From: Octopus vulgaris
Lineage: Eukaryota
Direction: 5' to 3'
Length of the DNA stretch: 64,000 nucleotides
Assembly (NCBI GenBank): GCA_951406725.2
Contig: OX597828.1
Coordinates: forward strand, 72,478,001-72,542,000
Below are positions 11,525-47,777 of the stretch, in pieces. Below the pieces are notes generated by a model. That model was not told the origin of the DNA. It ran no database searches and was given only the letters and a program-made list of their open reading frames with translations. The position numbers and the translations under genes were made by a program. Each line of letters starts with the position of its first letter. The stretch's first letter is position 1.

Positions 11525-11615
11525 TATATATGCATGACTGTATGTATGTATATTGCAAATGGATGTTTGCGAGAAAATATTTCATTTGCTCAACGGTTAA
11601 AAGGAAGGCAATGAT

Positions 11616-11650
11616 TCCTAACGTTTCGGTGAAAGTCCGTCATCAGAAGA
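11616..11650 (-). ncRNA. Minimal type I hammerhead ribozyme motif
   Basis: Minus strand: tctt CTGATGA c GG actttca CC GAAA CG TT agga. Stem I is 4 bp (1 G-U), stem II is 2 bp, and stem III is the AACGTT palindrome. Confidence 0.55.
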
Positions 11651-12069
11651 GACCTATATGAAGAAAGCGTAAGAGGGAAAGGGACTGAGATTCACACAGA
11701 TACACACATATAATTGTATAATTCACAGGCAAACGACAATGGTTAAATAGTTGTTATCCGGGACGTCAATAAAAGTTAAGCAACTAAAAGATGAAGGTCA
11801 TTATATTCAAGAAAAACTCTTTGCAATAGATTGAAAATTTGAATAATTGTGATTTGTACAATATTTAAGATTAGATCGTACATCTATACTAGTGGGACGG
11901 TTTACATCCTGCTAGCTTGGCCACTGCCCAGTGCCATACTTTGGTTAATCATGGCAAAAATAGAAATTAACACCTAAATTTAGAATGCATTTTTTTAATA
12001 ACACAAGTGTAATAAAAATAATGATAATGAGGATGATGATGATGATGATATGATGACGGTGTTATCATG

Positions 12070-12570
12070 TACATTGTTTTGTCTTGGTATAAAAGATGGG
12101 CTACAGCAAATATTCTGCTCAATATCACAGATTTGCTTGTCAGTTGTTTGACCGTAACCAGTTAAGCATGTCCCTTAGTGGCTGACGATATGTGCATCTC
12201 TGATCACGAGCAGAAGTAGTGGGGGAGCATCATAGCCATGTGTTGAGAGGGATTCTTTGAGGTTTGAATAATTCACCTCTGGAAACATGGGTGGTTCTTT
12301 CAACATCCTTAAACAACCCTTATTCAGGGACCTTTTGAGCGGGATGGGCTACTCAACCTGAAGAAAATTCTAACTGGGCCCAACCTGCAAGGTCATGTGC
12401 TGTTTATCTTGATATGAGATCACAATGTCGCGCACATATTGTTGTGATGCATGTGCCTGGTGTACCCTTATCAGACGGGTATTCATGATGGGTATATTGG
12501 GCTTCGTATATTTTACCCCAGTGTCACTTTTGATGGCATGCACTGCTCTCTCACTCAATAATAATAATAA
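12070..12570 (+). mobile_element. Retroposon 3' end family D with (TAA)n tail, copy 1
   Basis: About 500 bp, highly similar to 12583-13045 and 57195-57428. Ends ...gcactgctctctcactc(aat)n. Confidence 0.8.
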
Positions 12571-12582
12571 GCAATTATTCAT

Positions 12583-13045
12583 CTTAATACCACAGATTAG
12601 CTTGTCAGTTGCTTGACCTTAACCAGTTGAGCATGTCCCTTATTGGCTGACGATATGTGCATCTCTGATCATGAGCAGAAGTAGTTGGGGAGCATCATAG
12701 CCATGTGTTGAAAGGAATTCTTTGGGGTTTGAATAATTCACCTTTTGGAAACATGGATGTTTTCTTCATCATCTTTAAACAACCCTTATTCAAGGACCTT
12801 TTGAATGGGACGGGCTACTAGACCAGAAGAAAATTTTAACTGGGCTCCACCTGCAAGGTCATGCGCTGTTTATCTTGATATGAGATCACAATCTCACGCA
12901 CATATGGTTGTGATGCATGTGCCTGGTGTACCCTTACCAGACGGGTAGTCATGATGGGCTTTGTATATTTGTACTCCGGTGTCACTTTGGTGGCACGCAC
13001 TGCTCTCTCACTCAATAATAATAATAATAGTAATAGTAATAATAA
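12583..13045 (+). mobile_element. Retroposon 3' end family D, copy 2 (tandem)
   Basis: Collinear with 12120-12570 and has the same (aat)n tail. Confidence 0.8.
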
Positions 13046-44273: not shown

Positions 44274-46413
44274 TACTCTCTACTACCATTGACACTGACT
44301 GACAGTATTTATAACTACCAACACATACCACTCGTCTCGTGGGAGGGGTGTCCCAAAAATTACTATTATCCCCATAACATCTCTCCTTTTAAGTTTTCCT
44401 TTTTTTTTTCTTAGGGAATATAATTTTATTTCTTTTAATAGCTATAATTTTTACATTACCCCATCTCCCATTTTTGAGATTTTTCTTTCGTTTTTTTTAT
44501 ACAATTACAAATTTAATATTTTTTTCGTTTGGCATCCACTTCCAGGAACTCCGTAATTTTCTTTTTCTTACGCTTTTGCGTCTGGATTCAATTATTCGTA
44601 GTGGCGTTGGTACTTGAAAAGTATGATATAACCATTCCATTGGTTCTTCCATTCTCTTGGGTTCGCTCTCAACGAATGTATATCAAGTATGATAATCATG
44701 CCATCTTCCCAATTTTGATTTCCGTTCTTATATGCCCTAACAAATATCTTTTCACCAGTTTTGAAATCTCTTGCTGTATTTTCTCTTCCAATTTTTCTTT
44801 TCTTGCCAGGCAGCAAGTTGTCGAAGACTGTTGTTATTTTCCTTGCAAACATTAACTCCGCTGGTGACATGTCTGCTAGTGAGGTTGGTTTTGGTGTCAC
44901 GCGGTATACTTTTAAGAATTGTTGTAGAGTTACCTCATCTGTGACTTCCTTATTTGACTTTCTTAGGGCTCTCTTGAACGTATCAACAAAGCGTTCTGCT
45001 TGTCCGTCAGATCTGGGATCGTATGGCGCTGTGGTTACATGTTCTACAGCGAATGTTTTACAAAACTTTTTAAACTCGAAAGACACAAATTGCTTTCCAT
45101 TGTCAGGCAATGTTGGTTGAGAAGGTTGGATTTTTGCCCTTATAAATTTCTCGCCATTTGTCGAACTGCATTTTTAAACTTATATTTTCAATTTACACAT
45201 TTACAAATTTCTTCTTTGTTATATTACTAATTTCTTTCAACAAAATCTTGTTTATTCTGTTTTCTTTATTCCAAAGTTTTGTCATCTTGGTTCTACAGTG
45301 CTCTTTTCAGTGTCAAATTTCTCCACAGCGGAAACATTCCGCTTTCTTAAATGGGCAGTTTTTTCTCCGGTGTAGAACTCCACATGCAAAATATAGTTTT
45401 GTTTCCTGATGCTTGTCCTGTTCGTACTATATTTTAGTACACACTTGATTTCTATTCTTCGCACTTGGGAGCAATTTTTATGTTCAATTTTCTGTGTCGT
45501 GTCTTAAATTTACTCTTCTTTCACACTCTTCTAACTTCTTGTAAGGTTCCCGCCTGGTTTTGTTCCACCTTGGCGAGAATTCTTGTTCTTCTGCTTTTTT
45601 TTCTGCAGTTAGTCCCTGAGCAAATATCAGGCATTTGAACATATCTGACGTTGACTCGTCCGGTTTGAACTTTTTACATCCTCTGTTATCTCTACCAGCA
45701 TATGTGATGTAGTCCTCCACCTTGTTGCTCTTTTCTAGGTTCAAACCTTTCCAGCCTGTATTGAACGACGAGCTTTTATCGCTAAAAGGTTTATGCAGTA
45801 TGTCAATTGTAATTTTCAAGTTTATGTCAGAAGGTTTTTTTCGGGAGTACGTAATTGTTGTAACGCACTCTTTATCAAAGATTTGTTCGTATTTTCTATA
45901 GCAAGCCTCGAGGGTAACTCCTTCATCTGGATCATACCTAAACTCTGTTATTGAGTTTTAAACATAATCTGTGGAGAACTTTCTTTTAGCATTTTCTGAC
46001 CACTCACTATTCGTTAATTGCAGCATTTGACGCTGTAATAGTAATCGTTGTTGTTGTTGCTGCTTCTGCTGTCGTTCTTTCAGTTGTTGTTGTTGCTGTT
46101 TTTGCAACTCGAGCAAACCGGTCAATAAATCTTCTTCCACAATTTTACGATTTGGTATACCCTAAAATTCGCAGAAAAAACTTTTGTGAGCTTCATAACC
46201 CCTTGTGAGTTTGTTAATTCCTCGTCGCTACTGTTCTAATCCGCTGTCGGACTGTTGTAGCGCCCACTGCCGAATAGCAGTATAGTAAGTTAGACAAGTA
46301 AGACCTCCACTATCTAATCCGTACTCTCTACTACCACTGACACTGACTGGCAATATTTATAACTACTAGCGCATACCAGTCGTCATTGTCCCTATAAAAT
46401 TATCCCTGTAACA
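44274..46413 (-). mobile_element. Internally deleted Gypsy/Ty3 LTR retrotransposon
   Basis: The 5' LTR (46413-46232, TG...CA) is followed by PBS-like TAGCGACGAGG. The PPT AAAAGGAGAGA precedes a truncated 3' LTR at 44379-44274. Gag remnants at 45120-46140 are joined to integrase, with PR/RT/RH not seen. Confidence 0.85.
44592..45110 (-). pseudogene. Retroviral-type integrase core fragment
   Basis: DNGKQFVSFEFKKFC...HVTTAPYDPRSDGQAERFVDTFKRAL...YRVTP...SPAELMFARKI. Confidence 0.92.
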
Positions 46414-46757: not shown

Positions 46758-47120
46758 GCGCATGCGTGACTGTGTGGTAAAGCGCTTGTTTCCCGACCAC
46801 ATGGTTCCGAGTTCAGTCCCGCTGCGTGGCAACTTAGGAAAGTGTATTCTACTATATCCTCGGGTCGATCAAAGCCTTGTGAGTGTTTTTGGTAGACGGA
46901 AACTGAAAGAAGCCCATCGTATGTATATATATATGTATGTCTGTGTGTGTGCGTACGTGTGTGTATGCGAACACATATGTGTCCGTGTCCCTCACCACTG
47001 CTTGAAACCGGTTTTGGTATGTTTACGTTCCCGTGTCTTAGTCGTCCAGGCTTCAAAAATTATTCAAAGGGGTGCCCTAGCATGGCCGCAGTCCAATAAC
47101 CGAAAGAAATAAAAGAACAA
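46758..47120 (+). mobile_element. SINE family A, diverged
   Basis: Collinear with family A. Confidence 0.8.
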
Positions 47121-47390
47121 AAGACAAACCGTTGGTTAAGACAGATCTAAAAGAGGATGAAAGTTCGACCAGTTAGAGAAATCAAAATTTCTCTCAAGGA
47201 CGATTTAATATAAATATGTTATAAAAACTGCTTTAAAACAAAGTGATGTTATGTTGCCAACTTAATGTGGCAGTCCCATGAAAGGGAAGAATGCTACTGC
47301 TATTTAGCCCTAGGAAACATCGTTTCGTGTTGGACTTGACACATTTCCTGTGTCCTCATGTTTTCGAAGTGGAGACAAGCACCTCCACCC

Positions 47391-47460
47391 AGCAAAGCCA
47401 GCACCAGAGACTAGTTTCAGAGTCATTGCTCATCATCAGTCTGGAGTAGAATGGCTTGCT
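47391..47460 (-). ncRNA. Type I hammerhead ribozyme with extended stem I
   Basis: Minus strand: AGCAAGCCA ttctact CCAGA CTGATGA t GAG caatga CTC t GAAA CTAG TC TCTGG tgc TGGCTTTGCT. The GUC site falls between 47409 and 47408. Confidence 0.85.
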
Positions 47461-47777
47461 AGAATTCGATGAGTATTCGTCTTTGACAACATAAATATTT
47501 CAAGTGAAATGCATTCACTGATTGCCTTAAAACAATTTACCTGAAAATAACACCTAATAAGCGAAAGTTACTTTAAATATTCAAATGAGAGCATCGTAGT
47601 ATAACAGACACACACTGGATAACGCAGTTCAAGATGGAAGACGGAAAAAGAAAAGAAAAAGAAAACTTTCTCTCTCTCTCACACACACGCACACGCGCAT
47701 TCACACACGCACAAAGAGATGGTGTGATCATGGCTAGACTATCTGTGATCATAGGTCAAACCTGGAGCTCAACATCA

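What the first reader, a model, noticed from the sequence alone, without database searches (positions are those of the whole stretch)
47391..47460. Best-formed hammerhead: GUC site and extended stem I with internal loop
Seen: a perfect core, a 5-bp proximal stem I (CCAGA/TCTGG), an asymmetric internal loop, a further ~9-bp helix, stem II GAG/CTC with a 6-nt loop, and ACTAGT as stem III. Known: loop 2 docking into a stem I internal loop activates Schistosoma-type HHRs at low Mg2+. Inference: this is the most likely catalytically competent copy, and it would cut any minus-strand pre-mRNA crossing it.
Basis: partly seen in the sequence, partly recalled or inferred. Interest (0 to 1): 0.75.

Follow-up and report, generated by a model that had tools for sequence, protein, structure and literature searches.

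The report
Worn hammerhead in LINE-targeted mobile repeat
This is a real hammerhead-ribozyme sequence, but it sits in one worn, solitary copy of a small mobile repeat with hundreds of copies, and this copy is predicted to cut poorly; the more interesting part is the family, which was likely spread by Penelope-type enzymes and is hit again and again by another jumping gene at its likely transcription start.

Summary
The type I hammerhead is in the sequence (1 match; 0.01 expected by chance; cut after 47409). It is not a special copy. It lies in a 281-bp truncated, solo copy (47522-47242, minus strand, 13-bp target duplication) of a 346-nt repeat with 247 intact-core copies in this octopus-like genome. 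Stems covary across three related families (61-66% alike), so the source elements were very likely active. This copy lacks one stem I base and is predicted to misfold (0.8% correct register against 47% for an intact copy); its palindromic stem III probably needs a second hammerhead. No host exon was seen. Family copies carry Penelope marks (inverted truncated partner with a one-sided tail, 19 of 29), an ATCAGT box shared with U2 genes 56-61 nt upstream of one site, and L1/Tx1-type LINEs inserted at that site with 11-16-bp duplications; a 79% identical LINE sits at U2 +1. The scan noted this LINE targeting before on other DNA; my searches found it in no paper. Verdict: a non-LTR retrozyme, decayed here, with a new LINE target class.

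The parts
47242..47522 (-). 5'-truncated solo copy of the 346-nt hammerhead repeat (family A); lacks the optional ~54-nt tail and has no inverted partner
   Evidence: Homology to 29 other loci begins and ends here; unit length from a natural dimer
47523..47535 (-). Left target-site duplication, TTGTTTTAAGGCA
   Evidence: 13 bp, one mismatch to the right copy
47229..47241 (-). Right target-site duplication, TTGTTTTAAAGCA
47517..47522 (-). ATCAGT box, likely the proximal element of an snRNA-type promoter, 58 nt before the predicted +1
   Evidence: Same box 57-61 nt before +1 in 18 of 20 U2 loci of this genome; function inferred
47464..47464 (-). Predicted +1 and LINE target position; A in the family, T in this copy, one of three adjacent changes; no LINE inserted here
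47452..47462 (-). Distal stem I, 5' strand (CTAGCAAGCCA)
47445..47451 (-). Internal loop, 5' side (TTCTACT); family has TGCTAC plus a paired T
47440..47444 (-). Proximal stem I, 5' strand (CCAGA)
47433..47439 (-). Core CUGAUGA (C3-A9)
47419..47432 (-). U.U opposition, stem II GAG/CTC and loop 2 CAAUGA
   Evidence: U.U in 27 of 30 family A copies, C.A in 9 of 12 family B copies
47415..47418 (-). Core GAAA (G12-A15.1)
47410..47415 (-). Palindromic stem III, ACUAGU
   Evidence: 30 of 30 family A copies
47408..47409 (-). Predicted cleavage site, after C17 of GUC
   Evidence: Position follows from the hammerhead consensus; cleavage not shown
47404..47408 (-). Proximal stem I, 3' strand (TCTGG); the sixth base is deleted between 47404 and 47403
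   Evidence: other copies show an extra base at 47403
47389..47403 (-). Internal loop 3' side (TGC) and distal stem I 3' strand

Best explanation
The hammerhead lies in a truncated, solitary copy of a 346-nt multicopy repeat that is likely a non-LTR retrozyme mobilised by Penelope-like enzymes, and this copy is predicted to be a weak or dead remnant rather than a working switch. Inferred life cycle of the source elements: an snRNA-type promoter inside the unit starts RNA at the base of stem I; read-through of head-to-tail units gives two hammerheads that complete each other's palindromic stem III, cut, and release a unit-length RNA that is likely circularised; a Penelope-type RT/endonuclease copies it from a fixed internal start, across the cleavage site and into the promoter, giving dispersed copies with a 5'-truncated inverted partner, a one-sided tail and 11-13-bp target duplications. 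L1/Tx1-type LINEs insert at the predicted +1 of these units and of U2 genes, likely to borrow the promoter. Shown: sequence anatomy, copy numbers, covariation, insertion geometry, LINE junctions and duplications, the shared box. Inferred: cleavage, dimer action, transcription start, circles, the identity of the mobilising enzyme.
For: Multicopy: 1837 candidates, 85 exact 39-nt cores, 247 intact-core matches against 1 control. Unit 346 nt, closing on itself, within the 170-400-nt range of animal retrozymes (PMC7229834). Fold under selection: the six proximal stem I pairs are kept in families A (23-29 of 30), C (14-15 of 15) and D (13-18 of 20) while 5 of the 6 pairs change on both sides between families; U:UNY loop, loop 2 ending in A and a palindromic stem III recur, as in the Schistosoma motif (PMC2632901). 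U.U at the base of stem II is known from axolotl HHR_Amex2, which cuts 22% in an hour alone and far better as a dimer. Penelope marks: 19 of 29 loci have an inverted 5'-truncated partner and in 19 of those 19 the tail is on exactly one end, as described for PLEs. Endonuclease-bearing PLEs are abundant here. This copy: deletion in stem I, 0.8% against 47% correct register, changed +1. LINE; box and U2 link.
Against: No cleavage, start site or circle was observed. Rfam models did not recognise the motif. Only 1 locus has two intact family A cores one unit apart, unlike the tandem arrays that define non-LTR retrozymes, although family C has a trimer. No autonomous PLE sharing sequence with the unit was found: the one family examined does not match. 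The folding model cannot form a 2-nt loop or tertiary contacts, and even intact copies split about evenly between the two registers, so the ranking is only a guide. The box is weak in family D (7 of 19, scattered), and copies within a family share it by descent, so the test counts families, not loci. Copies crossing the cut site fit an uncut linear template as well as a circle; for an anole PLE uncut RNA was the main substrate.
Confidence: 0.78

Rival explanations
1. The unit is the solo pseudo-LTR of an autonomous Penelope-like element; the hammerhead served that element and the short copies are only its 5'-truncated ends, with no RNA circle of their own.
For: Fixed 3' end, tail and inverted partners are PLE features; retrozymes resemble pLTRs in Xenopus (10.64898/2026.07.22.740005); tandems are rare in family A.
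Against: Where copies run beyond one unit they continue into the same unit (L006, L020, L036, L060, L068), never into a PLE frame in the loci read; family C forms a 350-bp trimer; PLE hammerheads are usually minimal whereas this one is extended.
Confidence: 0.12
2. One reading: this copy is a competent ribozyme that cuts a minus-strand host pre-mRNA.
For: All core letters and all remaining stem pairs are intact; tertiary contacts, proteins or a second copy in trans could rescue the fold; the promoter box is intact.
Against: Stem I deletion moves the loop 1 U that pairs with the last A of loop 2; shifted register favoured by about 7 kcal/mol; single copy with a two-pair stem III; no host exon seen; divergence is that of an unselected old copy.
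Confidence: 0.06
3. The LINE and the hammerhead unit are one composite element: the hammerhead forms the LINE's processed 3' end and travels with it.
For: Some LINE-plus-unit composites were moved together with inverted partners (L065, L067); the cut would fall about 55 nt behind the LINE end.
Against: LINEs are flanked by 11-16-bp duplications with the unit on both sides, stack in tandem at the same site, precede different hammerhead families and also U2 genes; none of the 30 ends read stops cleanly at the cleavage site.
Confidence: 0.04

Closest known systems
Metazoan non-LTR retrozymes, above all axolotl Rtz_353 with HHR_Amex2 and mussel 350-390-bp repeats (Cervera and de la Pena 2020, PMC7229834; passages and section 15 read)
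   Same: Type I hammerhead in a non-coding unit of about 350 nt, low G+C, U.U at the base of stem II, weak stem III, target duplications longer than 4 bp.
   Different: Mostly dispersed single copies with inverted partners and tails rather than tandem arrays; stem III is a 6-nt palindrome with a 2-nt loop; circles and cleavage not shown here.
Schistosoma mansoni extended hammerhead (described in Dufour et al., PMC2632901; passages read)
   Same: Internal loop 1 with a 5' U opposite UAC, 6-nt loop 2 with a C.A opposition and 3' A (CAAUGA against CAAAUA).
   Different: Extra U.U in front of stem II, three-pair stem II; in the window copy the loop U is moved one step towards the core by a deletion.
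Penelope-like elements and their pseudo-LTRs (PMC8557442, PMC11167929, passages; bioRxiv 10.64898/2026.07.22.740005, parts 1-3 of 5 read)
   Same: 5' truncation, inverted 5'-truncated partner, optional tail on one end, fixed internal 3' end.
   Different: No open frame; tail about 54 nt against 30-40; extended, not minimal, hammerhead; partner element not identified.
Newt satellite 2 (snRNA-type promoter; seen only as a citing sentence in PMC2220036, the original was not held)
   Same: Hammerhead repeat with an internal snRNA-type promoter.
   Different: Here inferred from a box shared with U2 genes, not measured.
Target-specific Tx1-clade LINEs: Tx1 in Tx1D, Keno in U2, Tx1-Mar in Mariner-N4 (PMC4494074, passages read)
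   Same: APE-RT-zinc finger LINE, fixed site in a multicopy target, tandem stacking.
   Different: Targets are several hammerhead families only 61-66% alike plus U2 +1, all at the same distance from one box; clade membership not tested with a tree.

Membership tests
Type I hammerhead ribozyme | CUGANGA and GAAA core, NUH triplet, stem I open | tested here: met
Type I hammerhead ribozyme | Three stems supported by changed pairs in relatives | tested here: met
   Families A, C, D: 5 of 6 proximal stem I pairs change on both sides; stems II and III differ in sequence and stay paired
Type I hammerhead ribozyme | G10.1-C11.1 directly next to the core | tested here: inconclusive
   A U.U (A), C.A (B) or A.G (C) opposition intervenes, then G-C or G-U; a natural precedent exists
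Type I hammerhead ribozyme | Match to an Rfam hammerhead model | tested here: not met
Type I hammerhead ribozyme | Self-cleavage | not testable with these tools
   Only contigs were available
Extended (Schistosoma-type) hammerhead | Loop 1 5' U, extrahelical pyrimidine, loop 2 3' A, 6-bp proximal stem | tested here: inconclusive
   Met in the family (U 29 of 30, TAC 28 of 30); in the window copy the stem is 5 bp through a deletion
Non-LTR retrozyme | Non-coding unit of 170-400 nt with one type I hammerhead, many copies | tested here: met
   346 nt; 247 intact cores
Non-LTR retrozyme | Head-to-tail repeats with at least two hammerheads | tested here: inconclusive
   1 family A locus with two intact cores; family C trimer; the window copy is a monomer fragment
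Non-LTR retrozyme | Linear and circular unit-length RNA | not testable with these tools
   Tail-to-head joints in contigs of four runs also exist in DNA and the runs are only guessed to be RNA
PLE-mobilised element | Inverted 5'-truncated partner and one-sided tail | tested here: met
   19 of 29 loci; tail on exactly one end in 19 of 19
PLE-mobilised element | Autonomous PLE sharing the termini | tested here: inconclusive
   One PLE family examined (30 loci), no shared sequence; other families not searched
Target-specific Tx1-clade LINE (the inserted element) | ORF1 with zinc knuckle, ORF2 of APE-RT-zf type | tested here: met
Target-specific Tx1-clade LINE (the inserted element) | More than 20% of flanks in one target, with duplications | tested here: met
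   CTAGC-like motif behind 27 of 30 ends (4.5% background), strict hammerhead behind 8 of 30 (0.055%); duplications in 8 of 13 examined
Target-specific Tx1-clade LINE (the inserted element) | RT groups with Tx1 in a tree | not tested
   No labelled Tx1 references among the 120 relatives listed

The most novel reading that the evidence does not exclude
Octopod hammerhead retrozymes are self-promoting circles copied by Penelope machinery, and one group of L1/Tx1-type LINEs finds its targets not by a long DNA word but by the snRNA-type promoter itself, landing 57-60 nt behind the ATCAGT box at +1 of U2 genes and of at least three retrozyme families: a transposon guided by the host's snRNA transcription complex, with retrozymes as a spreading safe harbour.
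Probability: 0.3. Interest if true: 0.8.

Novelty: new variant of a known kind. Interest (0 to 1): 0.48.

Why it matters
The copy itself matters little: it is a worn insertion. The family gives direct insertion-geometry evidence for an idea that the papers read support by co-occurrence and pLTR likeness only, namely that Penelope-like enzymes move animal retrozymes. It also offers a natural set for a long-open question, how Tx1-type LINEs choose and switch targets: related LINEs sit at the same distance from one promoter box in targets that share little else, so promoter-guided and sequence-guided targeting make different, testable predictions.

Tried and rejected
Rfam at gathering score and at E up to 10: no hammerhead family. 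Expression: no RNA holder listed; contigs of runs guessed to be RNA cover the unit but cannot show starts, ends, strand or circles, and none bridged this copy to its flanks. Host gene: no exon recognised. Autonomous partner: one abundant PLE family with its own minimal hammerhead shares no sequence with the unit. Tandem arrays of family A: 1 match. My first idea that the LINE recognises the CTAGC word or the hairpin base was weakened: the junction lies 2-3 nt before CTAG in A and 4 nt in C and D but 58-59 nt from the box in A and C. A constrained dimer fold crashed; one search gives only the duplex energy of two ACUAGU strands (-4.8 kcal/mol). The active-fold energies are invalid because of the 2-nt loop and were not used. 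The family D block was mis-anchored and redone. Literature: 'Tx1'+'retrozyme' 0 papers; 'A9 and G10.1' search 0; (listings) showed no paper on octopus retrozymes or on LINEs targeting them; the O. vulgaris repeat paper PMC13282606 has 0 occurrences of ribozyme, retrozyme or target; the giant squid paper only counts 235 hammerheads. Repbase entries and subscription papers were not searchable, and no supplements were read; the supplements of PMC7229834 and PMC4494074 and the closed bioRxiv tables may list these families. PMC4447102 and PMC308520 were not held.

Full report
Observation. On the minus strand, 47462-47389 reads as a type I hammerhead: distal helix, 7x3 internal loop, CCAGA/TCTGG, CUGAUGA, stem II GAG/CTC with loop CAAUGA, GAAA, ACUAGU, GUC, cut between 47409 and 47408. 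The generic pattern occurs once in the window against 0.01 expected (with the stem). Rfam does not recognise it.

What it sits in. The 191 nt around it match a dispersed repeat: 1837 candidates, 40 scored; 85 exact 39-nt cores; 247 intact-core matches against 1 control. The window (G000:C15, 2.8-Gb genome; octopus-like by inference, the best named relative of a neighbouring LINE protein being from Argonauta) holds one copy, 47522-47242, between 13-bp duplications with one mismatch; 3 of 8 other solo loci show perfect 11-13-bp duplications. The unit closes on itself: 346 nt between two cleavage sites in the only locus with two intact cores. Copies share a 3' end, an optional tail of about 54 nt and variable 5' ends. 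Of 29 loci, 19 have an inverted 5'-truncated partner; in all 19 the tail is on exactly one end (13 left, 6 right); of the other 10, 4 have a tail. These are the marks described for Penelope-like elements (PMC8557442; PMC11167929; passages). An endonuclease-bearing PLE family is abundant here (4536 candidates) but shares no sequence with the unit, so the partner is unnamed.

Is the fold real? Within family A conservation is by descent, so I looked for diverged families: B (60 matches), C (2277 candidates, with a 350-bp trimer) and D (1127 candidates); A, C and D are 61-66% alike. Proximal stem I is TCCAGA/TCTGGA in A, TCTGTG/CACAGA in C, CCAGCA/TGCTGG in D, paired in 23-29 of 30, 14-15 of 15 and 13-18 of 20 copies; 5 of 6 pairs change on both sides. 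All keep a U opposite a UNY bulge, a loop 2 ending in A and a palindromic or near-palindromic stem III. That matches the Schistosoma loop-loop motif (PMC2632901). The U.U (27 of 30 in A; C.A in 9 of 12 in B) has a precedent in axolotl HHR_Amex2, which cut 22% in an hour as a monomer and much better as a dimer (PMC7229834 section 15). I infer that the source elements were active, probably as double hammerheads.

Is this copy the competent one? Probably not. It is 7.7% from the family majority, 29th of 30 loci (the others were picked as its best matches). It lacks the sixth base of the 3' strand of stem I (shared by 1 of 30) and has a G-to-T change in the loop (1 of 30), which moves the loop 1 U that should pair with the last A of loop 2. 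Sampling puts 0.8% of its ensemble in the correct register against 47% for intact L029; the shifted fold wins by about 7 kcal/mol; it ranks 45th of 82, and 29 of 82 exceed 20%. The model ignores tertiary contacts and cannot form stem III, so this is a guide only. The copy has no tandem partner and no host exon was recognised. RNA evidence was uninformative.

A LINE targets the family. Seven of 30 exact-core loci began at the base of stem I, directly behind AATAAAGAATT-like ends. Longer loci show L1/Tx1-type elements (zinc-knuckle ORF1; APE, RT, zf-RVT in L094) with the unit on both sides and an 11-12-bp duplication (L063, L075, L091, L094), often stacked in tandem. The junction pattern gave 17 matches against 0. 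Starting from the LINE end alone (76 matches, 0 control; 30 read), 27 of 30 are followed by a CTAGC-like motif (4.5% background) and 8 of 30 by a strict hammerhead 18-32 nt on (0.055%); by eye 16 of 30 lead into a hammerhead unit (7 A, 4 C, 5 D-like), most others into another LINE, and one (L173) fits neither clearly. Duplications were seen in 8 of 13 further cases; 5 had none. The window copy has no LINE, and its site is changed.

Promoter. Earlier notes of this scan (unchecked AI notes on other DNA) had already reported such LINEs and suggested that the site is an snRNA-type start. I tested that in part. An ATCAGT box lies 57-61 nt before +1 in 18 of 20 U2 loci; the other 2 have a LINE end there instead. 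The box lies 56-59 nt before the LINE junction in 26 of 29 A loci and 57-59 nt in 10 of 14 C loci, but in only 7 of 19 D loci at scattered distances; background 0.08% exact, 2.2% with one mismatch. The LINE in front of U2 is 79% identical over 1.2 kb to the one in family A. Newt satellite 2 is cited as having an snRNA promoter (PMC2220036). Since copies carry sequence upstream of the predicted +1 and run across the cut site, the template must have been a re-ligated circle or an uncut multimer; I favour the circle by analogy to PMC7229834, while uncut RNA was the main substrate for an anole PLE.

Comparison and verdict. It works like, and by the testable features belongs with, animal non-LTR retrozymes; tandem organisation is rare in family A and circles are unshown. 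Hammerheads in cephalopods have been counted and the PLE origin of retrozymes proposed, so the ribozyme is a new member of a known kind. The PLE insertion geometry, the U2-type box and a LINE group using +1 of both U2 and several retrozyme families make the system a new variant; my searches found no paper on it, but Repbase and supplements were not seen. Interest 0.48: an ordinary, decayed copy of a family whose biology is worth testing.

Noticed in passing
window 11646 (minus), about 11560-11660: CTGATGA..CCGAAACGTT, a minimal Penelope-type hammerhead-like motif with decayed stem I.
   Followed up: no
window 12105-13027: Two head-to-tail copies of a 466-bp unit, 88% alike, containing CTGACGA..CACGAG; possibly another ribozyme-bearing repeat.
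   Followed up: no
window 44592-45957 (minus): Decayed LTR-retrotransposon piece with an integrase core match.
   Followed up: partly
window about 46760-47125: Common SINE-like repeat right behind the element, present in many fetched loci.
   Followed up: no
L126, L145, L150 (G000:C5, C1, C4): Young, abundant PLE (RT then GIY-YIG-like domain, 4536 candidates) whose 3' region has a minimal hammerhead with a CUGAUGC core variant.
   Followed up: partly
L065 8644-9711; L067 5016-5410; L096; L097: LINE-end plus hammerhead composites that were moved again as one piece with an inverted partner, so PLE machinery carries LINE fragments.
   Followed up: partly
L093 3897-5601; L091; L092: ORF1-only LINE derivatives of about 1.7-1.8 kb that keep the same target as the full-length element.
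   Followed up: partly
L234-L253: U2 genes of this genome fall into three unrelated upstream types that share only the ATCAGT box; one type is dispersed over several chromosomes with near-identical flanks.
   Followed up: partly
L005 flanks (G000:C3:62798929-62802120): The family A copy is inserted inside a run of minimal hammerhead repeats, next to CCGAAACG.
   Followed up: no
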